Positions 12,361-45,181 of a stretch of DNA of 64,000 nt are shown here, one piece after another. The DNA is taken from the IMG/VR virus record IMGVR_UViG_3300050821_006121, positions 1-64,000 of that record; one strand, 5' to 3'. The position numbers and the translations under genes are program-made. The notes under the pieces are model-generated. The model had not been told where the DNA came from. It saw nothing but the letters and a program-made list of their open reading frames with translations, and ran no database searches. Numbering within the stretch: the stretch's first letter is position 1; each line of letters opens with the position of its first letter. Source of the DNA: a virus.

Positions 12361-13169
12361 AGTTGCCGTTTCCTGTTTCTTTTGAACCCATGATTCTCTG
12401 ATCTCGCGTATCGCGCTTTAGCAGAAATGCTCATTTTCAAACGTGATTCCTCCGAACGTTTTTTACCACGGTTTGCGGCACCAATCTTTGCGCGATGTTC
12501 TGGTGTCCGTTTTTGACCTTTCTGGAACGCGCTAATTTTGCGTTTAACCTCGTCTGAATGACGATAGCCAATCATCGCAATTTTTCGAGCAGCCATACAC
12601 TCCGGGGATGGTGGTCGACCATTGCGCGATTTACGCATCTTTTCAATGGTCTCTGGCGAATAGACTCTTCCTAAATTAGCCTGTCTAGTCTTCTCGACGG
12701 CATCGCGTGGTTGTTTGCGACCTAAATTCTTTTGTCGGGATTTCTCGATTGATTCTGGCGACATCTTCCGGCCAGTCGCAGCCCTGCGCATTTTCTCAAT
12801 TGCCTCTGGAGTGTGTCTTCTACCAGTTGCGTGTTTGCGTACATTTTCTTTGAATTCGTCTGATCGTTTCACACCAAGACAAGTCCCGGCGGTTGGAGAC
12901 GCATTATAACAACTATTGAGCCTGTCTATCCAAAATTGTTCGCGCTCAATCCCATGCGGCTTACCGAAGGCTAGATCAATTGGTTCAATAACAAACCTAA
13001 ATCTACCGTACTTATTCCATGCACGTTGAAGACGCTGAGCGTGATGTTCATTACTAAAGAGAAGTTTAGCATGAGCACCTTTACGTCTAGTCCAATGAAC
13101 TGTTTGGCCTACGTAACACTTATCCGAATCGAGATGACGGATTCGATATATCCAGACTAGATCAGCCAA
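12351..13169 (-). CDS. GIY-YIG homing endonuclease with NUMOD3 repeats
   Basis: IYRIRH..KCYVGQT..RRKGAH is the GIY-YIG core. Repeated HTPEAIEKMR / SPESIEKSR / SPETIEKMR motifs. Lies in a low-GC island. Confidence 0.85.
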   Translation of the reverse strand: MADLVWIYRIRHLDSDKCYVGQTVHWTRRKGAHAKLLFSNEHHAQRLQRAWNKYGRFRFVIEPIDLAFGKPHGIEREQFWIDRLNSCYNASPTAGTCLGVKRSDEFKENVRKHATGRRHTPEAIEKMRRAATGRKMSPESIEKSRQKNLGRKQPRDAVEKTRQANLGRVYSPETIEKMRKSRNGRPPSPECMAARKIAMIGYRHSDEVKRKISAFQKGQKRTPEHRAKIGAANRGKKRSEESRLKMSISAKARYARSENHGFKRNRKRQLCA

Positions 13170-15491: not shown

Positions 15492-15520
15492 AATGTAGCC
15501 CGATGCCGGGGAGTAGTAAA
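15492..15520 (-). promoter_or_regulatory. Phage promoter GCTTTACT-N17-TACATT
   Basis: Reverse-complement motif family member upstream of the 15469 operon. Confidence 0.5.
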
Positions 15521-15540
15521 GCGTCCCGACGCCCGCGGCC

Positions 15541-15700
15541 CTATCGCCTTATATACTGCACAGGGGGGTAGAGAAATTTTTTATTGTGACGCCCCCGCGG
15601 AAAGTATAAAGCATAACTGCTCTCTATGTACGTGATGTTGCTGGCCTTTTGCCCTATAGGCCACACAAAAGCCATGATATAATGGTATAGGGCTTTACGG
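15541..15700 (-). repeat. 160-bp AT-rich regulatory repeat, copy A (inverted partner at 46004-46160)
   Basis: The reverse complement aligns by eye over about 160 bp with 46004-46160. It contains CTTTAT-N17-CACAAT (15583-15611, minus strand) and abuts a GGGCTTTAC promoter. Confidence 0.7.
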
Positions 15701-15722
15701 CACCCTCTCGGCGTGCTACATT
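15694..15722 (+). promoter_or_regulatory. Phage promoter GGGCTTTACG-N17-TACATT
   Basis: Motif family member facing the tRNA array. Confidence 0.5.
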
Positions 15723-15821: not shown

Positions 15822-15859
15822 GCCCCCAGGAACTTTTTTGGTCCTGGGGGCTTTACTTT
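15822..15859 (+). terminator. Hairpin plus T-rich tail (candidate intrinsic terminator)
   Basis: A 10-bp stem GCCCCCAGGA/TCCTGGGGGC is followed by CTTTACTTT and overlaps the next -35. Confidence 0.35.
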
Positions 15860-15880
15860 GCATGTTAGGCGTGCTAAATC
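15852..15880 (+). promoter_or_regulatory. Phage promoter GGGCTTTACT-N17-TAAATC
   Basis: Motif family member about 170 nt upstream of the first tRNA. Confidence 0.5.
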
Positions 15881-16048: not shown

Positions 16049-16119
16049 TCCCCCAAAGCACTACGGTAGTGCAGCGTCCTCGTACGGCGTTGGACCGGGT
16101 TCAATTCCTGGTGGGGGAA
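16049..16119 (+). tRNA. tRNA-Thr(CGT)
   Basis: Hand-folded. Acceptor TCCCCCA/TGGGGGA, anticodon loop cT-CGT-ac, T-arm CCGGG-TTCAATT-CCTGG. Confidence 0.7.
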
Positions 16120-16120
16120 C

Positions 16121-16193
16121 GCCGGGGTGGCTCAGTGGCAACAGCAACTGTTTTGTAAGCAGTCAATCGCGAGTTCGAGTCTCGCTCCCGGCT
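16121..16193 (+). tRNA. tRNA-Thr(TGT)
   Basis: Acceptor GCCGGGG/TCCCGGC, loop tT-TGT-aa, T-loop TTCGAGT, encoded CCA. Confidence 0.75.
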
Positions 16194-16204
16194 CCATCTT
16201 TTTC

Positions 16205-16277
16205 GCCGCAGTAGCTCAAACGGAAGAGCGTCGCTTTGGTATAGCGAAGGCAGCTAGTTCGATACTAGCCTGCGGCA
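16205..16277 (+). tRNA. tRNA-Thr(GGT)
   Basis: Acceptor GCCGCAG/CTGCGGC, loop tT-GGT-at, encoded CCA. Confidence 0.75.
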
Positions 16278-16285
16278 CCACTTAT

Positions 16286-16366
16286 GCGAGCGTGGCCTCG
16301 TAGGAAACGGCACACCTTGCGGTCTCAGACACCGTGGCTTTGGGAGTTCGAGTCTCCCCGCTCGCA
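16286..16366 (+). tRNA. Atypical tRNA, best anticodon CAG (Leu?)
   Basis: Perfect acceptor GCGAGCG/CGCTCGC and T-arm, encoded CCA. The anticodon hairpin is GCGGT-cT-CAG-ac-ACCGT, with about 6 extra nt between the D arm and anticodon stem and no long variable arm. Confidence 0.5.
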
Positions 16367-16373
16367 CCAATAA

Positions 16374-16447
16374 CCCCTTGTAGCCCAAAGGCAGAGGCCA
16401 CCGCTTCAAAACCGGTTGATGTGTCGGTTCGAGTCCGACCTTGGGGA
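16374..16447 (+). tRNA. Atypical tRNA or pseudo-tRNA, anticodon CAA (Leu?)
   Basis: Good T-arm GTCGG-TTCGAGT-CCGAC and encoded CCA. Loop tT-CAA-aa. The acceptor has two T.T mismatches and the variable arm is short. Confidence 0.45.
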
Positions 16448-16455
16448 CCACACAC

Positions 16456-16527
16456 GCTCCCTGCGCCAGATGGGAAGGCATCGGTTTTACACGCCGACAC
16501 GACTCCGTTCGATTCGGAGAGGGAGTA
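16456..16527 (+). tRNA. tRNA-Val(TAC)
   Basis: Acceptor GCTCCCT/AGGGAGT, loop tT-TAC-ac, encoded CCA. Confidence 0.75.
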
Positions 16528-16534
16528 CCATAAC

Positions 16535-16606
16535 GCGTCTTTGGCGCAGTGACAGCGCGTCTCTTTGACATGGAGAAGGCCGCAAGTTTGATTCTTGCAA
16601 GACGCA
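16535..16606 (+). tRNA. tRNA-Val(GAC)
   Basis: Acceptor GCGTCTT/AAGACGC, loop tT-GAC-at, encoded CCA. Confidence 0.75.
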
Positions 16607-16610
16607 CCAC

Positions 16611-16682
16611 GCAAGCTAGTCCGAACGGCGAGGGCCTCGGCCGATAACCGAGTGGTAGCTGGTTCAACTCCAGCAGCTTGCA
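16611..16682 (+). tRNA. tRNA-Ile(GAT)
   Basis: Acceptor GCAAGCT/AGCTTGC, anticodon hairpin CTCGG-cC-GAT-aa-CCGAG (C33 is unusual), encoded CCA. Confidence 0.65.
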
Positions 16683-16689
16683 CCAATAC

Positions 16690-16768
16690 GGATCCTGAAC
16701 GTAAAGCCGAATGGATAGGCGCTGAACTTTTAATTCAGTCGTAAGAGGGTCGGAACCTCCAGGATTCT
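16690..16768 (+). tRNA. Atypical tRNA-Lys(TTT)
   Basis: Acceptor GGATCCT/AGGATTC, anticodon hairpin CTGAA-cT-TTT-aa-TTCAG, encoded CCA. There are 9 nt rather than 2 between the acceptor and D stem, and the T-arm is weak. Confidence 0.5.
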
Positions 16769-16776
16769 CCATTTCC

Positions 16777-16857
16777 GGATCGTTGACCCGAGCGGCAAAG
16801 GGACTGGCCTCTTAAACCAGTGCGAAAGCTTCGTGGGTTCGAGTCCCACACGATCTT
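16777..16857 (+). tRNA. Atypical tRNA, anticodon CTT (Lys?) with 12-nt variable region
   Basis: Acceptor GGATCGT/ACGATCT, T-arm GTGGG-TTCGAGT-CCCAC. Loop cT-CTT-aa has a C.A closing mismatch, or alternatively forms a 9-nt loop. Confidence 0.5.
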
Positions 16858-16858
16858 C

Positions 16859-16939
16859 GTCCGCGTGGCGAAACGGTAGACGCACGACCTTGAGGAGGTC
16901 GCGCCTTACGGCGTGTCAGTTCAAATCTGACCGTGGACA
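16859..16939 (+). tRNA. tRNA-Leu(GAG)
   Basis: Acceptor GTCCGCG/CGTGGAC, loop tT-GAG-ga, long variable arm CGCCTTACGGCGT, encoded CCA. Confidence 0.75.
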
Positions 16940-16945
16940 CCAATT

Positions 16946-17017
16946 GCTCTGTTACGCATCTGTCGAGGCGGATCCGCTGTCTACGGATTGAGGAGGGTTA
17001 GATTCCCTTACAGAGCG
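16946..17017 (+). tRNA. tRNA-Asp(GTC)
   Basis: Acceptor GCTCTGT/ACAGAGC, anticodon hairpin ATCCG-cT-GTC-ta-CGGAT, encoded CCA. Confidence 0.7.
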
Positions 17018-17020
17018 CCA

Positions 17021-17093
17021 CAGAATGTAGCTCAGTAGGCAGAGCGCCTGTTTCGGGAACAGGAGGCCGCTGGTTCGAGACCAGCCATTCTGA
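17021..17093 (+). tRNA. tRNA-Pro(CGG)
   Basis: Acceptor CAGAATG/CATTCTG (C1-G72), loop tT-CGG-ga, encoded CCA. Confidence 0.75.
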
Positions 17094-17101
17094 CCATTTA
17101 C

Positions 17102-17172
17102 GGGCCTGTAGCTCAGTGGCCGAGCCGATCGCTCATAACGGTCTGACGTTGGTTCGATTCCAAACTGGCCCA
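17102..17172 (+). tRNA. tRNA-Met(CAT), elongator-type or Ile2
   Basis: Acceptor GGGCCTG/CTGGCCC with one mismatch, loop cT-CAT-aa, encoded CCA. Confidence 0.65.
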
Positions 17173-17195
17173 CCAACAAGCGCGAGGAGACTCTC

Positions 17196-17744
17196 ATGAA
17201 GAACCACCCCGCGCTGCTGCTCAACGCGGACTTCCAGCCGCTCAACCTGTTCCCGTTGTCGACGCTGCCCTGGGACCGTGCTATCAAGGGCGTCTACGAG
17301 GAGACCCACGCGGTCGTGGCCGAGTACGACGAAGTCGTGCGAAGCCCGTCGACCACCATGAGGATCCCCTCGGTCGTGGCGCTTCGCAAGTACTCCCCGG
17401 TCCCGCGCCACGTGGCCTTCACCAGGTTCAACGTGTTCTTGCGCGACAGGTTCAGGTGCCAGTACTGCGGCCAGAAGCACGCGTCGGCCGACCTCACATT
17501 CGACCACGTCGTGCCGCGGAGCCAGGGAGGCCAGACGTCCTGGGACAATGTCGTCGCGGCGTGCTCACCGTGCAACGTGCTCAAGGACGACGCCACGGTC
17601 ATGAGGCCGTTGAGGCAGCCCAGGGTGCCGACTGCCGGGGAATTGATGGCGGCGAAGCGCGCCTTCCCGCCGAGCTACCTGCACGAAACCTGGCTGGATT
17701 TTTTGTACTGGGACTCAAGTCTCAGCGAGAACGACGTCTCTTAG
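17196..17744 (+). CDS. HNH homing endonuclease inserted in the tRNA array
   Basis: Contains CQYCGQ..DHVVPRSQGGQTSWDNVVAACSPCNVLK. Starts 24 nt after the tRNA-Met, and its stop lies inside the next tRNA. Confidence 0.85.
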   Translation: MKNHPALLLNADFQPLNLFPLSTLPWDRAIKGVYEETHAVVAEYDEVVRSPSTTMRIPSVVALRKYSPVPRHVAFTRFNVFLRDRFRCQYCGQKHASADLTFDHVVPRSQGGQTSWDNVVAACSPCNVLKDDATVMRPLRQPRVPTAGELMAAKRAFPPSYLHETWLDFLYWDSSLSENDVS

Positions 17745-17807
17745 CGTAGTGGACAGCGCGCCGCCCTCCGAAGGCGGGGGTCGCCGGTTCGAATCCGGCA
17801 GAGACGG
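17735..17807 (+). tRNA. tRNA-Arg(CCG)
   Basis: Acceptor CGTCTCT/AGAGACG, anticodon hairpin CCGCC-cT-CCG-aa-GGCGG, encoded CCA. The 5' 10 nt overlap the end of the HNH ORF. Confidence 0.7.
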
Positions 17808-17814
17808 CCAATAC

Positions 17815-17901
17815 GGAGGAGAGAAGCGGAAGGGTTTCCGTCGTGCTCTTGAAAAGCAAGGGTGCCCATTGGGCATGGAGTTCGAATCTACCCCTCCTCC
17901 G
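17815..17901 (+). tRNA. tRNA-Ser(TGA)
   Basis: Acceptor GGAGGAG/CTCCTCC, loop cT-TGA-aa, variable arm TGCCC-att-GGGCA, encoded CCA. The T stem is imperfect. Confidence 0.65.
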
Positions 17902-17977
17902 CCACCATTATCTCGCAAGCACGGACGTACTGTAGCGAAGCCATGGAGTTAGTAGCCTGGCACAATTACGATAGGAC

Positions 17978-18580
17978 ATGTCTATGATGTACACTATCTA
18001 CCAGACGACAAATACGCTCAATGGTAAAACTTATGTTGGGAAGCATCAGACCGATGAGCCATACGACACATATATGGGGTCAGGTATAGCAATTTATCGA
18101 GCTATATCAAAATATGGTAGAGAAAACTTTACTAAGCGTGTTCTTTATACTTTCGAATTTGAGTGGCAAATGAATTTAGCAGAACGTATTCTTGTTGTTC
18201 CTGATTACGAACTGTCTTACAATTTGGGGCCTGGTGGTGAGGGTGGACCTCATTTTCGTGGCCGTAAGCACTCTGATTTGACTGTGCAAAAAATCAAAGA
18301 AACAAGAAAACAACGCGGCCATGACGTCAAGGTGTTTAAGCCCAAACCTGTAAAGATAAAAGTCATTGTTCCACGCGGCGCAGATCACATACTATCGAAA
18401 ACACGTCATCCTGTAAAAGGAGAGAAACTTTCTTCTGAATGGAAAGAAAATATCCGAACATCTATGACTGGAAAGCATAGATCAGAAGAAACAAAGGCAA
18501 AACTTAGCGCAGCATTCAAGGGCCGCGTGCCTTGGAATAAAGGTTTAAAGTTTAACGCGGAGAAAAGCACCGGGAGCTAA
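17978..18580 (+). CDS. GIY-YIG homing endonuclease inserted in the tRNA array
   Basis: YTIYQTTNTLNGKTYVGKH is the GIY-YIG core, with NUMOD3-like repeats. Strongly AT-rich. The last 25 nt overlap the next tRNA. Confidence 0.85.
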   Translation: MSMMYTIYQTTNTLNGKTYVGKHQTDEPYDTYMGSGIAIYRAISKYGRENFTKRVLYTFEFEWQMNLAERILVVPDYELSYNLGPGGEGGPHFRGRKHSDLTVQKIKETRKQRGHDVKVFKPKPVKIKVIVPRGADHILSKTRHPVKGEKLSSEWKENIRTSMTGKHRSEETKAKLSAAFKGRVPWNKGLKFNAEKSTGS

Positions 18581-18629
18581 CGAGCCTCATAAGCTCGTAA
18601 CCTAGTGAGTTCGATTCTCACCTCCGCAA
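18556..18629 (+). tRNA. Initiator-like tRNA-fMet(CAT)
   Basis: Acceptor CGCGGAG/CTCCGCA has the C1.A72 mismatch and ends ..GCAACCA, as in bacterial tRNA-fMet. Loop cT-CAT-aa. Confidence 0.65.
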
Positions 18630-18637
18630 CCAACTAC

Positions 18638-18719
18638 GGGTGTCGTCAAGTCTGGTGACTGAGGGGCTCTGTAAAAGCTCCGCCTTCGGGCACGCCGAGT
18701 TCGATCCTCGGGACACCCA
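18638..18719 (+). tRNA. tRNA-Tyr(GTA)
   Basis: Acceptor GGGTGTC/GACACCC, loop cT-GTA-aa, long variable arm, encoded CCA. Confidence 0.75.
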
Positions 18720-18723
18720 CCAC

Positions 18724-18795
18724 GCGGACGTAGCTCAGGGGCAGAGCGCAACCTTGCCAAGGTTGATGTCGTCAGTTCGATTCTGATCGTCCGCT
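18724..18795 (+). tRNA. tRNA-Gly(GCC)
   Basis: Acceptor GCGGACG/CGTCCGC, loop tT-GCC-aa, encoded CCA. Confidence 0.75.
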
Positions 18796-18802
18796 CCAAT
18801 TC

Positions 18803-18875
18803 GTCTCATAAGCTAATCTGGTGAAAGCGTCTGCCTGAAGAGCAGAAGAGCGTGGATCGAAACCACGATGAGACA
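18803..18875 (+). tRNA. tRNA-Phe(GAA)
   Basis: Acceptor GTCTCAT/ATGAGAC, loop cT-GAA-ga, encoded CCA. Confidence 0.75.
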
Positions 18876-18882
18876 CCACATC

Positions 18883-18951
18883 GGGCCGGGCTTCGGGAAG
18901 CAGGGACGCCTTGCAAGCATCTCGTTCTCAGTTCAACTCTGAGTCGGTCCA
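18883..18951 (+). tRNA. tRNA-Ala(TGC)
   Basis: Acceptor GGGCCGG/TCGGTCC includes G3.U70. Loop cT-TGC-aa, encoded CCA. Short D arm (69 nt total). Confidence 0.65.
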
Positions 18952-18961
18952 CCATATCTAT

Positions 18962-19037
18962 TGCCGTAAAGCCGAGCTAGGTGCACGGACTCGCCTGTTA
19001 AGCGATGATTAGCCCGGTTCGAATCCGGGGACGGCAG
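18962..19037 (+). tRNA. tRNA-Asn(GTT)
   Basis: Acceptor TGCCGTA/GACGGCA, loop cT-GTT-aa, encoded CCA. Confidence 0.7.
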
Positions 19038-19044
19038 CCAACAC

Positions 19045-19117
19045 GTCTCCATCTTCTAGCGACCCAGGAAATCGCCCTCTCACGGCGAGAACGCGGGTTT
19101 AAATCCCGCTGGAGACT
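19045..19117 (+). tRNA. tRNA-Glu(CTC)
   Basis: Acceptor GTCTCCA/TGGAGAC, loop cT-CTC-ac, encoded CCA. Confidence 0.7.
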
Positions 19118-19124
19118 CCACTAT

Positions 19125-19197
19125 CTTCTCGTAGCTCAATGGAGGAGCGCCCGGCTACGAACCGGGAGGAATGCAGGTTCGACCCCTGTCGGGAAGA
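19125..19197 (+). tRNA. tRNA-Arg(ACG)
   Basis: Acceptor CTTCTCG/CGGGAAG, loop cT-ACG-aa, encoded CCA. Confidence 0.7.
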
Positions 19198-19205
19198 CCA
19201 CCTAA

Positions 19206-19279
19206 CTGTGCGTAGCTCAGGCTGGTAGAGCGCCTGCTTTGGGAGCAGGATGTCGCGAGTTCGATTCCCGCCGCACAGA
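19206..19279 (+). tRNA. tRNA-Pro(TGG)
   Basis: Acceptor CTGTGCG/CGCACAG (C1-G72), loop tT-TGG-ga, encoded CCA. Confidence 0.75.
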
Positions 19280-19285
19280 CCAACT

Positions 19286-19356
19286 GCCTCTTTCGTTCAA
19301 AGGTAGGACGGCACGCTCTGAACGTGCAGACGGTGGATCGATACCATCAAGGGGTG
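19286..19356 (+). tRNA. tRNA-Gln(CTG)
   Basis: Acceptor GCCTCTT/AAGGGGT, loop cT-CTG-aa, encoded CCA. Confidence 0.7.
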
Positions 19357-19363
19357 CCAATAC

Positions 19364-19433
19364 GAGCAGATGCCCGAGTGGTTAGGGAGCGCTCTGCAAA
19401 AGCGTTTACGACAGTTCGATTCTGTCTCTGCTC
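19364..19433 (+). tRNA. tRNA-Cys(GCA)
   Basis: Acceptor GAGCAGA/TCTGCTC, loop cT-GCA-aa, encoded CCA. Confidence 0.7.
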
Positions 19434-19441
19434 TCCAATAC

Positions 19442-19516
19442 GGTTCCGTGGCTCGAATGGATAGGCATCCGCCTTCTAAGCGGACTTTGACGGAGGTTCG
19501 AATCCTCCCGGAATCG
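19442..19516 (+). tRNA. tRNA-Arg(TCT)
   Basis: Acceptor GGTTCCG/CGGAATC, loop cT-TCT-aa, T-arm GGAGG-TTCGAAT-CCTCC. Confidence 0.75.
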
Positions 19517-19517
19517 C

Positions 19518-19590
19518 GGTCACGTAGCTCAGCGGATAGAGCGTCCCGGTCCTAACGGGAAGGTCGCCAGTTCGAATCTGGCCGTGATCT
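19518..19590 (+). tRNA. tRNA-Arg(CCT)
   Basis: Acceptor GGTCACG/CGTGATC, loop gT-CCT-aa, encoded CCA. Confidence 0.75.
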
Positions 19591-19598
19591 CCAGATAA

Positions 19599-19683
19599 GG
19601 AACGTTGGGTGAGAGGATTAAACCACCTCCCTGCTAAGGAGGCAGACCGCAAGGTCTCCAGAGTTCAAATCTCTGACGTTCCG
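19599..19683 (+). tRNA. tRNA-Ser(GCT)
   Basis: Acceptor GGAACGT/ACGTTCC, loop cT-GCT-aa, long variable arm, encoded CCA. Confidence 0.75.
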
Positions 19684-19691
19684 CCATCTAC

Positions 19692-19763
19692 GCGGGCTTG
19701 GGTCATTGGCTGATCGGCGCCCTTCCAAGGCGTTCTAAAGGGGTTCGATTCCTCTAGCCCGCA
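19692..19763 (+). tRNA. tRNA-Gly(TCC)
   Basis: Acceptor GCGGGCT/AGCCCGC, loop cT-TCC-aa. Confidence 0.75.
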
Positions 19764-19764
19764 C

Positions 19765-19836
19765 GCCACGTTCGTCTAGCGGAAGGACGCTTGCCTTTCA
19801 AGCAGGAGAACATCAGTTCGAATCTGATACGTGGCT
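19765..19836 (+). tRNA. tRNA-Glu(TTC)
   Basis: Acceptor GCCACGT/ACGTGGC, loop cT-TTC-aa, encoded CCA. Confidence 0.75.
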
Positions 19837-19846
19837 CCATCTTTGT

Positions 19847-19914
19847 TGCGGGACCTTCGGCAAGGAAGCGGGTCTTTGAAACCCGCCAAGAGGGGTCGGC
19901 ACCCTCGCCCGCTG
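19847..19914 (+). tRNA. tRNA-Gln(TTG)
   Basis: Anticodon hairpin CGGGT-cT-TTG-aa-ACCCG, T-arm GAGGG-GTCGGCA-CCCTC, encoded CCA. The 1-72 and 7-66 pairs are weak. 68 nt. Confidence 0.55.
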
Positions 19915-19921
19915 CCAACAA

Positions 19922-19993
19922 CGCTCGACCTCGGTGGGGCAGGGGTCCTCTCTCATAAGGAGGTCCAGGCCGGTTCGACCCCGGCACGAGCGA
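19922..19993 (+). tRNA. tRNA with anticodon CAT (elongator Met or lysidine-type Ile2)
   Basis: Acceptor CGCTCGA/ACGAGCG, loop cT-CAT-aa, encoded CCA. Confidence 0.7.
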
Positions 19994-20000
19994 CCAATGA

Positions 20001-20073
20001 GCCGGTTAGGCCGATCAGGTGATGGCGCAGGTCTGTGGAACCTGTCAGGCTGGATCGATACCAGCAGCCGGTA
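20001..20073 (+). tRNA. tRNA-His(GTG), A73, no encoded G-1
   Basis: Acceptor GCCGGTT/AGCCGGT, loop cT-GTG-ga. Position -1 is A and the discriminator is A. Confidence 0.7.
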
Positions 20074-20074
20074 C

Positions 20075-20145
20075 GGGAGTGTGGTTCAACGGCAGAACGT
20101 CGGTCTCCAAAACCGAAGACCAGGGTTCGACACCTTGCACTCTCG
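20075..20145 (+). tRNA. tRNA-Trp(CCA)
   Basis: Acceptor GGGAGTG/CACTCTC, loop cT-CCA-aa, encoded CCA. Confidence 0.75.
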
Positions 20146-20184
20146 CCACTATTCTGGGCCAATCACAATGATCGAAAAAAGGGC

Positions 20185-20213
20185 TTTACGGCCCCCAGGC
20201 GATAGGCTATAGT
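20185..20213 (+). promoter_or_regulatory. Phage promoter GGGCTTTACG-N17-TATAGT
   Basis: Motif family member. The predicted TSS at about 20220/20221 coincides with the first base of the Y-RNA-like stem. Confidence 0.6.
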
Positions 20214-20220
20214 GCTGTTC

Positions 20221-20292
20221 GTGGGCGAGCCCCAGGACTTCGGTTATCAGGAAAATGACACACCGATATCCACCTACTGCGCTCGCCCGCAC
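20221..20292 (+). ncRNA. Y-RNA-like ncRNA 1
   Basis: Terminal helix GTGGGCGAGC / GCTCGCCC(GC)AC. Shares the conserved 5' GAGCCCCAG and 3' CTGCGCTC(G/A) halves, which form a bulged helix, with the two following modules. Confidence 0.6.
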
Positions 20293-20297
20293 TACTA

Positions 20298-20457
20298 CGC
20301 TGCCTCCGGGGCGCGAGCCCCAGAGTGTTGGTTATCCCTTGTAAGGAGGTGGTCGTCGGTTCGAATCCGACCGCAGGGCTGAAAGGTCTCGCGTAGCTCA
20401 GCGGTAGAGCACCTAAACCCGACGCTCGATTCTGCGCTCGTGCCCACGGAGGCAGCG
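20298..20457 (+). ncRNA. YrlA-like Y RNA 2 with permuted tRNA-like domain
   Basis: About 20-bp terminal helix (CGCTGCCTCCGGGGCGCGAGC / GCTCGTGCCCACGGAGGCAGCG). The interior holds a T-arm GTCGG-TTCGAAT-CCGAC, a closed acceptor-like hairpin, then a D-arm GCTC-AGCGGTA-GAGC. Confidence 0.7.
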
Positions 20458-20467
20458 ACTAGACGAC

Positions 20468-20576
20468 GTGACGACAGGTGATGAGCCCCAGGTTATCGGT
20501 TATCTTGGTTCGACTCCAAGACCCTTAAAACAGGTCTGTTCCGATCTCCGACACTGCGCTCATCTCCTGTCCTCAC
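20468..20576 (+). ncRNA. Y-RNA-like ncRNA 3
   Basis: 19-bp terminal helix GTGACGACAGGTGATGAGC / GCTCATCTCCTGTCCTCAC with two mismatches. Interior T-arm-like CTTGG-TTCGACT-CCAAG. Ends 23 nt before the rsr ATG. Confidence 0.6.
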
Positions 20577-20598
20577 CAACCTACAGGAGGGTAGACCC

Positions 20599-22185
20599 AT
20601 GGGACGATACGCAAACCTGGCCCGCCAGCCGGTTCCGCAGTCGGAGCCGCTGACCGCTGCGCAGGTCAAGAACAATGCCGGTGGCTTCGTCTACGCGCTG
20701 GACGACTGGAAGCGCTTGGAGCGCTTCCTGATCCTCGGCAGCGACTCGTCGACATACTACCAGAAGGCCCGCGACCTCACGCGCGAGAACGCCGCGTGCG
20801 TCGAGCGGTGCTGGAAGGCCAACCCGGAGCGGACGGCCGCCGTCATCGCGGACATCTCCAAGGACGGCCGAGCCCCGAAGAACGACCCCGCGATCTTCGC
20901 TCTGGCCCTGGGCGCCTCGAACGCCCTCCCGGCAGTGCGAGCCGCAGCCCTGGGCGCTATGCCGGCGGTCTGCCGCACCTCGACCCACCTCTTTATGTTC
21001 GTCGACTGCTGCCGGGCCCTGGGCCGCGGCTGGGGACGCGCGATGAAGCGCGCCGTGGCAGCCTGGTACGAGAGCCGGACGCCGGACAACCTGGCCTACC
21101 AGGTCGTCAAGTACCGCCAGCGCGAGTCCTACACCCACAAGCGCCTGATCGAGTCGAGCCACGCGCGCTCCCTCGGCTCTCCCGAGAGAGCGGCCGTGTA
21201 TCGCTGGGCGCGTGGCAAGCAGGACTGGCTCCCCGACCAGATCGAGGCGTGCCCGCTCATCATCCGCCAGCACGTGGGTGCCATGGCGGCCACCGACGCC
21301 GCGACCGTCGCCAAGTACGCCACGGTACTGCCGTGGGAGGCGCTGCCGACCGAGTTCGTCCGCAGCCCGGAGGTCACGCGCGCCCTCCTCCCGTTCATGG
21401 GCCTGGGCGCCCTGGTGCGCCAGCTGGGCATCATGACCGGGTCCGGCGTGATCGCGCCCCTGTCGTCGGAGGCGCGGCTGGTGGCCGACCGCCTGGGCGA
21501 CGCTGCCGAGATCAAGAAGGCTCGCCTGCACCCGTTCAACATCCTCCTGGCTCTGGCGACCTACAACCAGGGCCACGGCCACCTGGGAAAGGCTTCTTGG
21601 ACCCCGATGCCGGTGGTCCAGGACGCGCTTGAGGCCGCCTTCTACGCGTCCTTCGCCACTATCGCGCCTTCCGGCGCCCGGACCCTGATCGGGCTGGACG
21701 TGTCGGGATCGATGTCGTCTCCGCTCATGGGCTCGCCGCTGACCGTGTGCGAGGGCGCCGCGGCCATGGCCATGGCGACCATGAGGGCCGAGAAGAACTG
21801 GCACGTCATGGCCTTCGACCGGGGCTTGCGCGACCTGCGGCTGACCGCCAAGATGAGCCTGAGCGACGTGACCGAGAAGACCCGCAACGTCAACGGCGGC
21901 GGCACCGACTGCGCCTTGCCGATGCTATGGGCCCTGGAGAACAAGGTCGACGTCGACGTGTTCCAGATATTCACGGACAACGAGACGTGGGCCGGCCACG
22001 TTCACCCGTCCAAGGCGCTGCAGCACTACCGCCAGGGCCGGGGAATCGCGGCCAGGCTGGTCGTGGCAGGAATGACGTCCACTGGCTTCACGATCGCCGA
22101 CCCCCAGGACGGCGGCATGATGGATGTCGTGGGCTTCGACAGCGCCGCGCCGGCCGTGATCGCCGACTTCAGCCTGCCGAACTGA
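20599..22185 (+). CDS. rsr: Ro60 orthologue Rsr (TROVE domain plus vWA domain)
   Basis: NNAGGFVYALDDWKRLERFLILGSDSSTYY is the TROVE signature and GLDVSGSMSSP is a vWA MIDAS motif. 528 aa. SD GGAGGG. Confidence 0.9.
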   Translation: MGRYANLARQPVPQSEPLTAAQVKNNAGGFVYALDDWKRLERFLILGSDSSTYYQKARDLTRENAACVERCWKANPERTAAVIADISKDGRAPKNDPAIFALALGASNALPAVRAAALGAMPAVCRTSTHLFMFVDCCRALGRGWGRAMKRAVAAWYESRTPDNLAYQVVKYRQRESYTHKRLIESSHARSLGSPERAAVYRWARGKQDWLPDQIEACPLIIRQHVGAMAATDAATVAKYATVLPWEALPTEFVRSPEVTRALLPFMGLGALVRQLGIMTGSGVIAPLSSEARLVADRLGDAAEIKKARLHPFNILLALATYNQGHGHLGKASWTPMPVVQDALEAAFYASFATIAPSGARTLIGLDVSGSMSSPLMGSPLTVCEGAAAMAMATMRAEKNWHVMAFDRGLRDLRLTAKMSLSDVTEKTRNVNGGGTDCALPMLWALENKVDVDVFQIFTDNETWAGHVHPSKALQHYRQGRGIAARLVVAGMTSTGFTIADPQDGGMMDVVGFDSAAPAVIADFSLPN

Positions 22186-22189
22186 GCGC

Positions 22190-22218
22190 TTTACTACCCT
22201 CCCCTTGGAGGGTAGTAT
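22190..22218 (+). promoter_or_regulatory. Phage promoter GCTTTACT-N17-TAGTAT
   Basis: Motif family member upstream of 22243, which has SD AGGAGAG. Confidence 0.5.
22193..22216 (+). terminator. 10-bp hairpin after rsr, embedded in the next promoter's spacer
   Basis: ACTACCCTCC-cctt-GGAGGGTAGT starts 8 nt after the rsr stop. No T-run follows. Confidence 0.35.
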
Positions 22219-22242
22219 CTCGACCTGCACAGGAGAGCAGTT

Positions 22243-22449
22243 ATGAAAAGCCCGAACATGAGCATCCACCCGCACCGGTGGGACTACGGCAGCGACTACC
22301 GGCGGTCGAACACCGCCAAGCCCCGGTCGCGGTCCAAGCTGGAGCGCCAGCTCAAGAGCATCGAGGGCCACCTCGAAACGCATCCCCAAGACCACATGAG
22401 TCGGACCCGGGTCGATGCCATCAAGTCAGCCATGGCAGAACTCCGATGA
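22243..22449 (+). CDS. Hypothetical protein
   Basis: 68-aa ORF with an SD and an ATGA overlap with the next gene. Confidence 0.55.
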   Translation: MKSPNMSIHPHRWDYGSDYRRSNTAKPRSRSKLERQLKSIEGHLETHPQDHMSRTRVDAIKSAMAELR

Positions 22450-23045
22450 ATCAGCCATCGCCCGCCCTAGCCGCCGCCATGCGCGGGAACCAGAGCCCCC
22501 TTCCCGAGGACAAACTCGACGCGCTCCGCGACATGGCCCGCCAATTACGGGACAAGGAAAAAGAGATCGCCGACCTCGACGAGCGGATCAAGGCCACCAA
22601 GGCCGAGGTCGCCGAGATACGCACGAAAAAGCTGGTCGACCTCATGGCCGAGGTCGGCGTTGACAGAGTCGGCCTCCCGGCCGAGGGCAACTACCCGGCG
22701 TGCGACGCCGAGCTCAAGCCCTACTACCACGCGGTCATATCAGCGGACTGGGAGCCCGAGCGGCGCCAGGCCGCCTTCGCGTGGCTCGACAGCGCGGGCC
22801 ACGGCGACCTTATCAAAACTGCAATAACAGTTTTGATACCACGTGACGACCGCGCCATGGCCAAGAGCATCGAGCTCTACCTGGAGCAGACCGGCGTCCA
22901 GCACACGGTCCTGCTCGACGTGCCCTGGAACACGCTCACGGCGTTCGTGAAGGAGCAGGTCGAGAAGTACCACCGCACGCCGCCCCTGGAGACCCTGGGG
23001 GCCACGGTGGGGCAGGTGGTCAAGCTCAAAGTCAGAAAGGAATAG
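22446..23045 (+). CDS. Coiled-coil protein, possible recombination accessory factor
   Basis: ATG at 22446 within the 21747..23045 ORF; the upstream part of that ORF overlaps rsr out of frame. Precedes the SSB-like gene. Confidence 0.55.
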   Translation: MNQPSPALAAAMRGNQSPLPEDKLDALRDMARQLRDKEKEIADLDERIKATKAEVAEIRTKKLVDLMAEVGVDRVGLPAEGNYPACDAELKPYYHAVISADWEPERRQAAFAWLDSAGHGDLIKTAITVLIPRDDRAMAKSIELYLEQTGVQHTVLLDVPWNTLTAFVKEQVEKYHRTPPLETLGATVGQVVKLKVRKE

Positions 23046-23048
23046 ATC

Positions 23049-23252
23049 ATGGGCGGAGGATGCGCAGAAGCCAACTATCAAAATCAAGTCGCGCAACGAA
23101 GAATGTCAGCGAAAGACGGCGGCACCGAACTCGCTAAACTCATGGATCGACATCTTGACTGCAGGGTCGATCCTGTTGCGCTTCGCCTTTTCATCGTGGC
23201 ATACTGGAGCAGAGTCTCTCTGTGTGCCCACGCAATTCACGACGAGACCTAA
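23049..23252 (+). CDS. Hypothetical protein
   Basis: 67-aa ORF filling the gap in a lower-GC stretch. The start is uncertain (alternative ATG at 23103). Confidence 0.4.
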   Translation: MGGGCAEANYQNQVAQRRMSAKDGGTELAKLMDRHLDCRVDPVALRLFIVAYWSRVSLCAHAIHDET

Positions 23253-23270
23253 CCACAAACAGGAGGACCA

Positions 23271-24152
23271 ATGGCGTTCGGACAGACCAAGACCAAGGAA
23301 GACATCACCAAGACCACGACAGGAGGGCCGATGCAGTCGGCGCCGACCCAGGGCACCAACGTGACCAAGATCCACGCCGGCCCCCCGGCCGCGCTGGCCG
23401 ACAAGCTCAAGGCCGACTCTGGCAAGGGCGTGTCGACCGACCAGGCCGACAACCAGGTACCGCTGATCTACGTCCTCCAGCCCCTGAGCCCCCAGGTCGA
23501 CAAGCGAGACCCCCGCTACATCGAGGGCGCCGAGGCGGGCGACATCTGGCTCCGTGGCGCGCCGTCCCCGATCGTGAAAGGCGACGAGGGCATCGTTTTC
23601 CAGCCCTGCTCGTTCTGGCACGACGTGGGCGAGTGGATCCCCCGCGACGACGGCGGCGGCTTCGTGGCGCGCCACAAGACCCTCCCCGCCAACGCGGTCA
23701 AGACCGTGGACCCCAAGAACCCGGCCCTGGTCAAGTTCAGGACCCCCGACGGCAACGAGCTGGTCGAGACCCGCAACCACGCCGGCTACGTCGTGACGGC
23801 CGACGGCCCGATCCCCTACGTCCTCCCGCTCACCTCGACCGGGCACTCCACGTCGCGGTCCTGGATGTTCATGATGAACTCCCAGCGGGGACCCGACGGC
23901 TCCAAGCCGCCGTCGTGGGCCTGCGTCTACAGGCTCAAGACCATCCAGAAAAAGAACAAAAAGGGAAGTTGGTTTGTCCTGGTGGCCGAGAACGGCGGCG
24001 ACCACGGTCAGACCCGGTGGGTCGACACGGTCGAGGACTACGAGCGAGGTTCTGCCCTGTACGAGGCCTTCGCGTCTGGCCAGAAGCAGGCAGAGGCGCC
24101 GGTGGCGGATGTCGGAGCATCTGACGACCAGGACGGGCCCGTCCCCTTCTGA
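23271..24152 (+). CDS. Putative ssDNA-binding/annealing protein with SSB-like acidic C-terminal tip
   Basis: 293 aa. The C-terminus ..ASDDQDGPVPF resembles the bacterial SSB tip DDDIPF. Sits next to the primase. Confidence 0.5.
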   Translation: MAFGQTKTKEDITKTTTGGPMQSAPTQGTNVTKIHAGPPAALADKLKADSGKGVSTDQADNQVPLIYVLQPLSPQVDKRDPRYIEGAEAGDIWLRGAPSPIVKGDEGIVFQPCSFWHDVGEWIPRDDGGGFVARHKTLPANAVKTVDPKNPALVKFRTPDGNELVETRNHAGYVVTADGPIPYVLPLTSTGHSTSRSWMFMMNSQRGPDGSKPPSWACVYRLKTIQKKNKKGSWFVLVAENGGDHGQTRWVDTVEDYERGSALYEAFASGQKQAEAPVADVGASDDQDGPVPF

Positions 24153-45152: not shown

Positions 45153-45181
45153 ATTGTAGCGTCTTGGTGGGTGGGAGTAAA
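45153..45181 (-). promoter_or_regulatory. Phage promoter CACTTTACT-N17-TACAAT
   Basis: Reverse-complement motif family member. Confidence 0.5.

What the first reader, a model, noticed from the sequence alone, without database searches (positions are those of the whole stretch)
20185..22185. Three tandem Y-RNA-like ncRNAs, one a YrlA-type tRNA mimic, between the tRNA array and Ro60/Rsr
Directly downstream of a motif-family promoter lie three hairpin-closed modules (20221-20292, 20298-20457, 20468-20576). Each has a long terminal helix that contains the conserved halves 5' GAGCCCCAG and 3' CTGCGCTC(G/A). These pair as GAGC/GCTC, then an asymmetric bulge, then CAG/CTG. That is the architecture expected for a Ro-binding site.
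Module 2 encloses a permuted tRNA-like domain: a T-arm GTCGG-TTCGAAT-CCGAC, a closed acceptor-like hairpin, then a D-arm GCTC-AGCGGTA-GAGC. This is the arrangement described for bacterial YrlA. Module 3 has a T-arm-like hairpin.
The gene that follows encodes a clear TROVE+vWA Ro60 orthologue. Rsr/Y-RNA RNPs are known in bacteria and in some phages. New here are the triple array, its fusion to a 36-tRNA operon and the shared promoter logic. Together they suggest a phage-borne RNA quality-control or tRNA-surveillance module.
Basis: partly seen in the sequence, partly recalled or inferred. Interest (0 to 1): 0.8.

Follow-up and report, generated by a model that had tools for sequence, protein, structure and literature searches.

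The report
Phage Y-RNA array with Ro60 gene
A large soil phage encodes three small structured Y RNAs, one of which mimics a tRNA, directly in front of its Ro60/Rsr gene; this is a known kind of RNA-protein module, seen here with a different conserved RNA motif and a fixed place in the phage's tRNA gene array.

Summary
Window 20220-20576 (+) contains three stem/internal-loop/stem RNAs, followed by a 528-aa Ro60/Rsr gene (TROVE + vWA_Ro60). All three share the motif GAGCCCCAG-N6-GGTTATC.

- **Independent detection.** A covariance model built only from related loci finds exactly these three sites in 64 kb: 60.6, 40.4 and 32.0 bits.
- **Module 2 is a YrlA-type tRNA mimic.** It has a T-arm, then a closed acceptor hairpin, then a D-arm. 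It aligns with the YrlA RNAs of four actinophages, with compensatory changes.
- **Modules 1 and 3 are YrlB-like.** The same model also detects the second Y RNAs of phages BearBQ and Sparky.
- **The layout is shared by a clade.** Dozens of uncultivated soil phage contigs and two Bradyrhizobium assemblies carry 2-6 such modules with Rsr, inside or beside the same syntenic tRNA array.

- Family covariation does not favour the CAG/CTG pairing.
- I detect 31 tRNAs, not 36.
- A triple array already exists in phage FuzzBuster.
- Four to six modules occur in relatives.
- The promoter is a general phage promoter.

Phage Ro60 with upstream Y RNAs is already published (2014, 2025). What differs here is the loop motif (CCCA where CGAA is expected), the array expansion and the conserved link to the tRNA array. 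Verdict: a real feature, and a new variant of a known kind.

The parts
16049..20148 (+). Phage tRNA gene array. It holds 31 tRNAs, interrupted by HNH (17196-17744) and NUMOD3 (17978-18580) homing-endonuclease ORFs, and ends with tRNA-His and tRNA-Trp 33 nt before the promoter.
   Evidence: ARAGORN tRNAs. A tRNA-Ser(UGA) at 17815-17900 is added. The same tRNA order occurs in L034, L085, L081, L083, L023 and L025.
20183..20213 (+). Sigma-70-like promoter of the Y-RNA/rsr unit: GCTTTAC-N17-CTATAGT, with -35 TTTACG at 20185-20190 and -10 TATAGT at 20208-20213.
   Evidence: Consensus scan. The motif family has 8 sites against 0.06 expected. The motif is retained in close relative L081 within an otherwise diverged spacer.
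20220..20291 (+). Y RNA module 1, a short YrlB-like hairpin. It has a terminal helix ending GAGC/GCUC, an internal loop (5' CCCCA), helix 2 ending CGG/CCG, then GGUUAUC and a small distal hairpin.
   Evidence: R1 60.6 bits, E = 1.4e-13. Fold z = -4.28. The class alignment has 16 pairs, 7 with compensatory changes. R1 also detects the second Y RNAs of BearBQ and Sparky.
20298..20458 (+). Y RNA module 2, YrlA-type. A 21-bp extended terminal helix with one bulged A encloses the core (20308-20446). The core has the GAGCCCCAG loop and helix 2, then a small hairpin, T-arm 20355-20371, closed acceptor-like hairpin 20372-20393 (GAAA loop), UA, and D-arm 20396-20410.
   Evidence: Rfam YrlA 33.8 bits, E = 1.1e-5, at 20347-20416. 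It aligns with the YrlA RNAs of Sparky, FuzzBuster, Colt and BearBQ plus 6 relatives; 27 pairs, 16 compensatory. The T-arm stem is fully compensated in L081, L083 and L084. Fold -88.3 kcal/mol, z = -5.62.
20468..20576 (+). Y RNA module 3, YrlB-like with a T-arm-like hairpin (CTTGG-TTCGACT-CCAAG, 20504-20520). The core is 20476-20568, inside an extended terminal helix that ends 23 nt before the rsr start codon.
   Evidence: R1 40.4 bits, E = 2.7e-8. Fold z = -4.23. The T-arm is kept in L081 and L084, changed compensatorily in L027 (ATTGG/CCAAT), and missing in L083.
20599..22185 (+). rsr, a Ro60 orthologue of 528 aa with a TROVE/HEAT ring and a vWA domain carrying an intact MIDAS motif (D-V-S-G-S). 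The RBS GGAGGG lies at 20586-20591.
   Evidence: Pfam TROVE 1.8e-30 and vWA_Ro60 2.3e-66. PDB matches 1YVP 1.7e-112, 9NEN and 2NVO. Identity to annotated phage Ro-like proteins is about 42%. Metagenomic relatives reach 84-87%.
22186..22220 (+). Next promoter-like site directly after the rsr stop codon: GCGCTTTAC-N17-GTAGTAT. Its spacer holds the hairpin ACCCTCC-CCTT-GGAGGGT. It marks the 3' boundary of the Y-RNA/rsr unit.
   Evidence: Read. It was not tested statistically on its own.

Best explanation
Window 20183-22185 is one phage transcription unit: a phage sigma-70-type promoter, three tandem Y RNA genes, then rsr (Ro60).

**Shown.**
- The three RNAs share one conserved protein-binding scaffold. 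It consists of a covarying terminal helix that always ends GAGC/G(Y)UC, an internal loop with 5' CCCCA, a covarying helix 2 ending (U)CGG/CCG(A), and the junction sequence GGUUAUC.
- Each RNA carries a different distal domain. Module 1 has a small hairpin. Module 2 has a permuted tRNA-like domain (T-arm, closed acceptor stem, D-arm) of the YrlA type. Module 3 has a lone T-arm-like hairpin.

**Inferred from M. smegmatis, S. Typhimurium, D. radiodurans and Thermus phage phiLo.**
- The array is transcribed with rsr as one precursor, possibly also by read-through from the tRNA array.
- The precursor is cut into separate 70-160-nt RNAs. The long terminal helices would suit RNase III, and the tRNA-like part would suit RNase P or tRNA enzymes.
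- Each RNA binds the outer face of the Rsr ring through the GAGCCCC loop and helix.
- The distal domains act as tethers or gates that couple Rsr to host partners such as PNPase (a RYPER-like machine), redirecting degradation or quality control of structured RNA during infection.

The conserved placement inside the phage tRNA array suggests shared processing and expression with tRNAs, and perhaps an action on the phage or host tRNA pool. That last step is speculation.
For: **Identity of the RNAs**
- Three exact motif copies in the window, and none of 100 shuffles reach three.
- Model R1, built without any window sequence, finds only these three sites in 64 kb.
- The same model detects the second Y RNAs of actinophages BearBQ (30.5 bits) and Sparky (27.9 bits).
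- Module 2 aligns with the YrlA RNAs of four Ro-encoding actinophages. Its T-loop and D-arm are invariant, and 16 of 27 pairs show compensatory changes.
- Its Rfam YrlA score of 33.8 bits equals the 33-37 bits scored by those phages.

**Structure**
- Terminal helix over 26 modules: 90.9% paired against 74.1% shuffled and 24-50% in slid registers.
- Over 93 distinct modules: 98.3% paired, with 221 double changes against 57 in shuffles.
- Helix 2 covaries at positions 17-41 and 18-40.

**Link to Rsr**
- The modules lie on the same strand directly upstream of Rsr in L012, L017, L023, L025, L026, L027, L029, L034, L040, L046, L058, L078, L081, L083, L084 and L085.
- Rsr is a complete TROVE + vWA protein.

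**Precedent**
- M. smegmatis YrlA and YrlB lie upstream of rsr, come from one precursor and bind Rsr, and YrlB has a T-arm (PMC4201824).
- phiLo Ro60 binds two upstream Yrl RNAs and host PNPase (PMC12135203).
Against: - There are no expression, processing or binding data for this phage.
- The published Rsr-contact motif GNCGAA(N0-1)G / CGAA is absent. The loop reads GAGCCCCAG, so assigning it as the Rsr site rests on its position and on alignment with CCGGA/CCGAA loops.
- The Rfam YrlA hit is below gathering. The same model gives 20-26 bits on tRNA-tRNA junctions in the array, so that hit alone discriminates poorly.
- No PNPase, RtcB or RNA ligase gene was found among the window ORFs I scanned, so any partner must come from the host.
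- Some modules in relatives lie far from any Rsr gene in the DNA held (L016, L007), so Rsr dependence is not proven for all copies.
- The covariation counts use an alignment fitted to the model. In one search, four rows had their 3' register set by hand.
Confidence: 0.8

Rival explanations
1. The modules act in cis as an Rsr-binding leader of the rsr mRNA. They would provide autoregulation, attenuation or mRNA stabilisation, rather than being released as stable trans-acting Y RNAs.
For: Module 3 ends only 23 nt before the start codon and 10 nt before the RBS. No terminator-like site lies between the modules and rsr. The arrangement directly upstream and on the same strand is conserved.
Against: Homologous modules occur away from rsr inside tRNA arrays: L016 (two modules, no Rsr in 13.5 kb), L007, and L027 9456-9534. 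In L029 about 650 nt of other sequence lies between the array and Rsr. M. smegmatis YrlA and YrlB in the same position are processed to stable Rsr-bound RNAs (PMC4201824). A tRNA-like domain with an intact T-loop/D-loop elbow has no obvious use in a leader.
Confidence: 0.08
2. They are decayed or rearranged tRNA genes, or tRNA-tRNA junction remnants and processing hairpins of the tRNA array, with no relation to Rsr.
For: They sit at the end of a tRNA array. The Rfam YrlA model also scores real tRNA-tRNA junctions at 20-26 bits. Two degenerate tRNA-like cloverleaves lie nearby at 19847-19996.
Against: Modules 1 and 3 are not tRNA-like overall. All three share a 22-nt motif absent from the tRNAs. 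The permuted order T-arm, closed acceptor hairpin, D-arm is enclosed in a conserved covarying stem in 29 distinct relatives. The acceptor hairpin is a closed GAAA-capped loop, not two tRNA ends. ARAGORN calls nothing here, and Rfam tRNA reaches only 20.7 bits against 29. Co-occurrence with Rsr is strong.
Confidence: 0.03
3. They are real Y RNAs, but their main role is as tRNA decoys or protectors against host tRNA-targeting defences (anticodon nucleases, tRNA-modifying or sensing systems). Rsr would serve mainly to stabilise them, and no PNPase-type degradation machine would be involved.
For: They are consistently embedded in large phage tRNA arrays. T-arm or full tRNA-like domains occur in 40 of 80 distinct modules. 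Jumbo-phage surveys place TROVE proteins among RNA-repair systems (PMC7824862).
Against: There is no direct evidence. No anticodon-stem mimic is present, because the tRNA-like domain lacks an anticodon loop. Precedents in three bacteria and phiLo point to exoribonuclease tethering (PMC4201824, PMC12135203).
Confidence: 0.09

Closest known systems
YrlA / YrlB of Mycobacterium smegmatis and of mycobacteriophages (Chen et al. 2014, PMC4201824; Rfam RF02553)
   Same: - The RNAs are encoded upstream of rsr on the same strand.
- One has a permuted tRNA-like domain (T-arm, acceptor hairpin, D-arm), followed by a shorter RNA that can carry a T-arm.
- The scaffold is stem, internal loop, stem, with CGGUUAUC after helix 2.
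- Module 2 aligns column by column with the YrlA RNAs of Colt, Sparky, FuzzBuster and BearBQ.
   Different: - The internal-loop motif is GAGCCCCAG instead of GNCGAA(N0-1)G (CCGGA or CCGAA in the actinophages).
- There are three modules rather than two, and the short one comes first.
- Rsr is only about 42% identical.
- The likely host group is Bradyrhizobium/Hyphomicrobiales rather than Actinobacteria.
Thermus phage phiLo Ro60 with Yrl1 and Yrl2 (PMC12135203, 2025)
   Same: A phage-encoded Ro60 has tandem Y-RNA-like genes directly upstream. In phiLo, binding to the phage Ro60 and formation of a complex with host PNPase were shown experimentally.
   Different: The phiLo Yrls were identified by a CGAA motif. 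Two RNAs were described there. That paper does not use the term YrlA and mentions tRNA only twice, so I could not tell from it whether a tRNA-like domain or a tRNA-array context exists in phiLo.
Deinococcus radiodurans Yrn1/Yrn2 and S. Typhimurium YrlA/YrlB with Rsr and PNPase (RYPER)
   Same: Several Y RNAs are encoded next to rsr, and one has a tRNA-like module. The proposed tether-and-gate mechanism is taken from these systems.
   Different: Those are cellular and stress-induced systems, and in Salmonella rsr lies in an rtcBA operon under RtcR. Here the unit is phage-borne, driven by a phage promoter, with no rtc genes nearby.
Unannotated Y-RNA modules of sequenced actinophages (FuzzBuster, Sparky, BearBQ, Beuffert)
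   Same: FuzzBuster has three tandem modules upstream of Ro. Sparky has four tRNAs, then two modules, then Ro. In Beuffert, YrlA and a short module lie inside the tRNA array upstream of Ro.
   Different: They carry CGAA-type loops. DNA similarity to the window is undetectable by megablast.

Membership tests
YrlA (Rfam RF02553; Chen et al. 2014) | Encoded within 4 kb of rsr on the same strand | tested here: met
   Module 2 lies at 20298-20458 (+) and rsr starts at 20599 (+).
YrlA (Rfam RF02553; Chen et al. 2014) | tRNA-like domain in the order T-arm, closed acceptor-like stem-loop, D-arm, with canonical T-loop and D-loop sequences | tested here: met
   The YrlA model matches positions 23-87. 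The domain aligns with four known phage YrlA RNAs. GGTTCGA, TCC and TAGCTCA..GAGC are invariant, and the T-stem covaries.
YrlA (Rfam RF02553; Chen et al. 2014) | GNCGAA(N0-1)G motif near the 5' end (the proposed Rsr contact) | tested here: not met
   The sequence is GAGCCCCAG. In alignment it occupies the same columns as GAGCCGGAC, GGGTCGATC and AGGCCGAGA of the actinophage RNAs, but CGAA/CGGA is replaced by CCCA.
YrlA (Rfam RF02553; Chen et al. 2014) | Score at or above the Rfam gathering threshold | tested here: not met
   33.8 bits against 69. The YrlA RNAs of Sparky, Beuffert, FuzzBuster and Colt also reach only 33-37 bits. tRNA junctions reach 20-26 bits.
YrlA (Rfam RF02553; Chen et al. 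2014) | Bound by Rsr; carries D and pseudouridine modifications; substrate of RNase P or the CCA-adding enzyme | not testable with these tools
   Needs RIP, EMSA and modification mapping.
Y RNA in general (Ro60-binding ncRNA) | 5' and 3' ends pair into a helix interrupted by a conserved bulge or internal loop, with a variable distal module | tested here: met
   The terminal helix and helix 2 covary across 93 distinct modules. The 5' loop CCCC is invariant (partly by construction of the search pattern).
YrlB-like short Y RNA of actinophages | A second, shorter hairpin Y RNA next to YrlA that shares the Rsr-binding scaffold | tested here: met
   Model R1, built from this clade's short modules, hits the second RNAs of BearBQ (30.5 bits, E = 7e-6) and Sparky (27.9 bits, E = 3e-5) end to end.
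Ro60 / Rsr protein | TROVE HEAT-repeat ring plus a C-terminal vWA domain with a MIDAS motif | tested here: met
   Pfam TROVE and vWA_Ro60. Full-length matches to 1YVP, 9NEN and 2NVO. D-V-S-G-S was read from 21697-21711.
Canonical tRNA | Cloverleaf with acceptor stem formed by the ends and an anticodon arm; called by tRNA finders | tested here: not met
   ARAGORN calls nothing in 20149-20598. Rfam tRNA reaches 20.7 bits against 29 on 20319-20379.

The most novel reading that the evidence does not exclude
This clade of large soil phages (Bradyrhizobium-associated) carries a distinct Y-RNA subclass. Its Rsr-recognition loop has switched from CGAA to CCCA. The subclass has expanded to arrays of up to six RNAs with varied distal domains, and it behaves as an integral part of the phage tRNA gene array, including orphan copies between tRNA genes far from rsr. 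On this reading the Rsr/Y-RNA particle acts on the tRNA pool during infection, through quality control of phage tRNAs or protection from host tRNA-targeting defences. YrlA itself may have arisen from a tRNA-tRNA junction in such arrays.
Probability: 0.2. Interest if true: 0.7.

Novelty: new variant of a known kind. Interest (0 to 1): 0.45.

Why it matters
What bacterial and phage Y RNAs do, and why one of them mimics tRNA, is still largely unknown. This locus and its roughly 100 homologous modules offer three things.

1. A natural variant of the proposed Ro60-contact motif (CCCA for CGAA), paired with a diverged Rsr clade. This gives a direct handle on RNA-protein specificity.
2. A set of paralogous Y RNAs that share one scaffold but differ in distal domain, which suits tests of the tether model.
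3. A conserved physical link between Y RNA/Rsr and phage tRNA arrays, in elements found in culturable Bradyrhizobium strains (Ai1a-2, C9). There the idea of a tRNA-directed function could be tested genetically.

It does not change the current picture, because phage Ro60 with upstream Y RNAs is already published.

Tried and rejected
- **Megablast against the phage collection.** Neither 20150-22250 nor window 1-25000 gave any match, so no close cultured relative is available.
- **Protein-pattern scan of viral contigs with Rsr.** Nothing found. The DNA motif scan worked instead.
- **Rfam at gathering thresholds.** Only tRNAs were found.
- **Single-copy motif hits in viral contigs.** About 20 loci without Rsr (L006, L008-L011, L013-L015, L018-L022, L024, L028, L031, L032) lack a proper closing helix: all but L011 score 8 or fewer of 11 pairs, and L011's one 10/11 closure is a 277-nt span. 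None is hit by R1. I treat them as chance matches of a 16-base pattern.
The family covariation favours G16-C42 as the first pair of helix 2. The alternative cannot be excluded within the window's own lineage, where CTGCGCTC is invariant.
- **The '36 tRNAs'.** Only 31 are supported. Two further degenerate cloverleaves are not called by either tool.
- **Partner enzymes (RtcB, RNA ligase, PNPase, CCA-adding enzyme).** None was found among 33 window ORFs scanned with Pfam.
- **Literature access.** The supplementary tables of Chen et al. 2014, the 2018 review and the 2020 review are not held. I therefore could not check whether any member of this clade was already listed.
- **Contig look-up for the window's own Rsr (P0001).** Not on record.
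- **My first automatic pairing of 5' and 3' arms.** It mis-registered several modules and was replaced by nearest-partner rules and by the covariance model.
Full report
**What is in the sequence**

The window is part of a large phage genome. It encodes a tail collar protein, terminase, family-A DNA polymerase, AEP primase, UvrD helicase, two DNA methylases and several homing endonucleases. G+C content is about 60%.

From 16049 to 20148 (+) lies a tRNA array. ARAGORN tRNAs. Rfam adds one at 17815-17900; its anticodon loop CUUGAAA makes it tRNA-Ser(UGA), not tRNA-Sec. That gives 31 tRNAs, not 36. Two further degenerate cloverleaves lie at 19847-19996 and are not called by either tool.

A promoter-like site lies 33 nt after tRNA-Trp: TTTACG-17-TATAGT at 20185-20213. 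Three structured modules follow, and then a 528-aa ORF at 20599-22185. That ORF is a complete Ro60/Rsr:
- Pfam TROVE 1.8e-30 and vWA_Ro60 2.3e-66.
- Full-length matches to X. laevis Ro60 (1YVP, 1.7e-112), human RO60 and D. radiodurans Rsr.
- The MIDAS residues D-V-S-G-S are readable.

**Check of the observation**

- GAGCCCCAG-N6-GGTTATC occurs exactly three times in the 64 kb, at 20227, 20315 and 20483, all on the + strand. None of 100 shuffles gave three matches, even allowing two mismatches.
- Each copy is closed by a 3' CTGCGCTC plus the complement of its own 5' flank.
- The modules fold far better than shuffled sequence, with z = -4.28, -5.62 and -4.23.
- Module 2 contains T-arm GTCGG-TTCGAAT-CCGAC (20355-20371), a closed GAAA-capped hairpin (20372-20393), and D-arm GCTC-AGCGGTA-GAGC (20396-20410).
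- Module 3 contains CTTGG-TTCGACT-CCAAG (20504-20520).

**Is module 2 a YrlA?**

At gathering thresholds Rfam reports only tRNAs. With E-value reporting, the YrlA model (RF02553) matches 20347-20416 at 33.8 bits, E = 1.1e-5, over model positions 23-87. That span is the tRNA-like core.

This is below the gathering score of 69. However, Ro-encoding actinophages score the same: Sparky 36.6, Beuffert 34.0, FuzzBuster 33.3 and Colt 33.2 bits, each upstream of the Ro gene. Mycobacteriophages are among the phages in which YrlA was originally reported (PMC4201824).

A caution applies. The same model gives 20-26 bits at real tRNA-tRNA junctions in this array. That is the false-positive class the original authors filtered out. 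The Rfam hit alone is therefore weak evidence.

The decisive evidence is alignment. Module 2 aligns along its whole length with the YrlA RNAs of Sparky, FuzzBuster, Colt and BearBQ and with six metagenomic relatives. GGTTA.C, GGTTC.A.TCC and TAGCTCA…AGAGC are invariant. RNAalifold finds 27 pairs, 16 of them with compensatory changes, in the terminal helix, helix 2 and the T-stem.

In the closest relatives (Rsr 84-87% identical), the T-stem GTCGG/CCGAC becomes GGGAG/CTCCC or GGAAG/CTTCC.

**Modules 1 and 3, and an independent test**

Scanning IMG/VR for the motif returned 28 loci. Seven of them have a Rsr homologue (53-60% identity) directly downstream of three to five tandem modules. Most of the other loci have one copy each, lack a proper closing helix, and are consistent with chance matches.

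A stricter tandem pattern was then scanned in two further collections:
- Genome collection: Bradyrhizobium sp. Ai1a-2, a Hyphomicrobiales MAG and an Armatimonadota MAG.
- Metagenomes: 38 loci, many with Rsr.

I built covariance model R1 from ten short modules of relatives, with no window sequence. Searched over the whole window on both strands at E up to 10, it returns exactly three hits:

| Module | Coordinates | Bits | E-value |
|---|---|---|---|
| 1 | 20220-20291 | 60.6 | 1.4e-13 |
| 3 | 20476-20568 | 40.4 | 2.7e-8 |
| 2 | 20308-20446 | 32.0 | 4.2e-6 |

The same model matches end to end the second, short RNAs next to YrlA in BearBQ (30.5 bits) and Sparky (27.9 bits). It matches more weakly in Beuffert and Colt. 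Modules 1 and 3 are therefore homologues of the YrlB-type short Y RNAs. As in M. smegmatis YrlB, module 3 carries a T-arm (PMC4201824). That T-arm is compensated in L027 (ATTGG/CCAAT) but missing in L083, so it is not essential to the scaffold.

**The shared scaffold**

Over 26 modules from 8 loci, the 11-bp terminal helix is 90.9% paired. The shuffled control gives 74.1% and slid registers give 24-50%. There are 58 double changes against 20 in shuffles (four rows had their 3' register fixed by hand).

R1 finds 105 modules in 71 sources, 93 of them distinct. On that model-fitted alignment 98.3% of cells are paired, with 221 double changes against 57 in shuffles.

The family consensus is 5' ..G..C-GAGCCCC-AG-N3-TTCGGTTATC and 3' CCGAT-N12-GTTC-G..C. 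Helix 2 pairs positions 16-24 with 34-42. It covaries at 17-41 and 18-40 and has a conserved U·U mismatch.

Three consequences follow:
- GAGC/G(Y)UC is supported. It is G-U in most relatives and G-C in the window's lineage.
- The 5' CCCCA lies in an internal loop.
It remains possible in the window's own lineage, where CTGCGCTC is invariant.

In alignment with the actinophage RNAs, GAGCCCCAG occupies the columns of GAGCCGGAC, GGGTCGATC and AGGCCGAGA. These correspond to the published GNCGAA(N0-1)G / CGAA motif thought to contact Rsr (PMC4201824, PMC12135203). The motif itself is not met here, because CGAA is replaced by CCCA.

**Context and what is conserved**

The promoter belongs to a family GCTTTAC-N17-CTAnAnT with 8 sites in the window against 0.06 expected.
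- Two of these sites lie upstream of the tRNA array, and several lie in other gene modules.
- A related site sits directly after the rsr stop codon.
- It is thus a general promoter of this phage that delimits a Y-RNA/rsr unit. It is not logic specific to tRNAs and Y RNAs.
- Close relative L081 keeps it, although the surrounding spacer has diverged.

The link to the tRNA array is conserved across the clade:
- L081, L083 and L061 have the same order: tRNA array, then (His)/Trp, then the modules (followed by Rsr in L081 and L083; L061 ends before it).
- L023, L025, L034, L046 and L085 have the cassette inserted in the middle of the same syntenic array, after Pro(tgg). L040 and L058 have it after Arg(acg).
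- L027 has the cassette upstream of the array.
- L085 is a 480-kb Bradyrhizobium sp. C9 contig with 33 tRNAs in the window's order and four modules plus Rsr.

Arrays range from 2 to 6 modules; L066 has six, and L040 and L058 have five. Some modules lie between tRNA genes with no Rsr nearby: L016, L007, and L027 9456-9534.

Among cultured phages, similar arrangements are visible but unannotated:
- Sparky has four tRNAs, then two modules, then Ro.
- Beuffert has its YrlA and a short module inside the tRNA array.
- FuzzBuster has three modules upstream of Ro.

**Mechanism**

The following are shown:
- Three homologous structured RNAs with a common covarying scaffold and different distal domains.
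- Their conserved position upstream of rsr, on the same strand.
- A plausible promoter, and no terminator-like site before rsr.

The following are inferred from M. smegmatis, S. Typhimurium, D. radiodurans (PMC4201824) and phiLo (PMC12135203):
- Co-transcription with rsr.
- Processing to separate RNAs. The 21-bp and 18-bp terminal helices of modules 2 and 3 look like RNase III substrates. In M. smegmatis, RNase P cuts the acceptor-like stem.
- Binding of the scaffold to the Rsr ring.
- Use of the distal domains to tether host partners such as PNPase.

I found no gene for PNPase, RtcB or RNA ligase among the window ORFs scanned, so any partner would come from the host. A role directed at tRNAs is suggested only by the conserved genomic association.

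**Novelty**

Phage Ro60 genes with upstream Y RNAs were reported in 22 phages in 2014 and shown biochemically for phiLo in 2025. The kind is therefore known. Three things differ here:
- The loop motif (CCCA in place of CGAA), in a Rsr clade only about 42% identical to annotated phage Ro proteins.
- The expansion to 3-6 modules.
- The conserved embedding in a syntenic tRNA array, in a clade tied to Bradyrhizobium genome assemblies.

I rate it a new variant of a known kind, of moderate interest.

Noticed in passing
window 17815-17900 (+): This tRNA is missed by ARAGORN and scored by Rfam as tRNA-Sec (51.6 bits, above the gathering score of 47). Its anticodon loop CUUGAAA gives anticodon UGA, so it is a long-arm tRNA-Ser(UGA) rather than a selenocysteine tRNA.
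   Followed up: partly
window 19847-19996 (+): Two degenerate tRNA-like cloverleaves lie in the gap between tRNA-Glu and tRNA-His. The second (about 19921-19996) has acceptor CGCUCG/CGAGCG, a CAU anticodon loop, a good T-arm and an encoded ACCA tail. Neither ARAGORN nor Rfam calls them. The region as a whole folds no better than shuffles.
   Followed up: partly
window 15492-15522(-), 15692-15722, 15850-15880, 20183-20213, 45153-45183(-), 45983-46013(-), 46363-46393, 59044-59074(-); also 22186-22220: A phage promoter family GCTTTAC-N17-CTAnAnT has 8 sites against 0.06 expected by chance, usually preceded by GG. The site after rsr (22186) has a perfect hairpin ACCCTCC-CCTT-GGAGGGT inside its spacer, which could be a terminator or an operator.
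   Followed up: partly
window 17196-17744, 17978-18580 (+), 12351-13169 (-), 52361-53068 (+): There are several homing-endonuclease-type ORFs (HNH; NUMOD3; GIY-YIG + NUMOD3). Two of them are inserted inside the tRNA array. Relatives L083 and L085 also carry an HNH ORF in their arrays.
   Followed up: no
L016 1603-1768; L007 214-355; L027 9456-9534; L012 2132-2209: In related phage contigs, 'orphan' Y-RNA-like modules lie between tRNA genes and away from any Rsr gene in the DNA held. L016 has two modules and no Rsr within 13.5 kb. L007 belongs to the same 103-kb contig as L017.
   Followed up: partly
L029 (reverse strand), oriented 12536-13132: An array of five modules has a real tRNA-Met between modules 2 and 3, about 680 nt upstream of Rsr. 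The intervening ORF region contains a long GGCTAT(GGC) tandem repeat encoding a Gly/Tyr-rich stretch.
   Followed up: no
L083 2960-3095: In a close relative (Rsr 87% identical), about 110 nt are inserted between modules 2 and 3. The insert lacks the GAGCCCC motif but has its own long inverted repeat (GACTGACGGTGA...TCACCGTCAG). In the same locus, module 3 has lost its T-arm.
   Followed up: no
window 19487-19543, 19172-19231, 17065-17125 (+): The Rfam YrlA model gives 20-26-bit hits on junctions of adjacent tRNAs (T-arm of one plus D-arm of the next). This shows that the YrlA tRNA-like domain has the topology of a tRNA-tRNA junction. The hits are a false-positive class, and possibly a hint about YrlA's origin.
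   Followed up: no
L085 (Bradyrhizobium sp. C9, NWTG01000004.1 192879-214501) and L034 (Bradyrhizobium sp. Ai1a-2, NZ_AUEZ01000004.1): Two Bradyrhizobium isolate assemblies carry the same tRNA array, Y-RNA modules and Rsr cassette inside large contigs (480 kb and 214 kb). This suggests integrated or co-assembled relatives of this phage, and so a culturable host.
   Followed up: partly
window 22251-24152 (+): The genes after rsr encode Pam3 gp33-like (DUF7307) and Pam3 gp34-like proteins, followed by an AEP primase. The same order occurs in relative L081. Their function is unknown.
   Followed up: no
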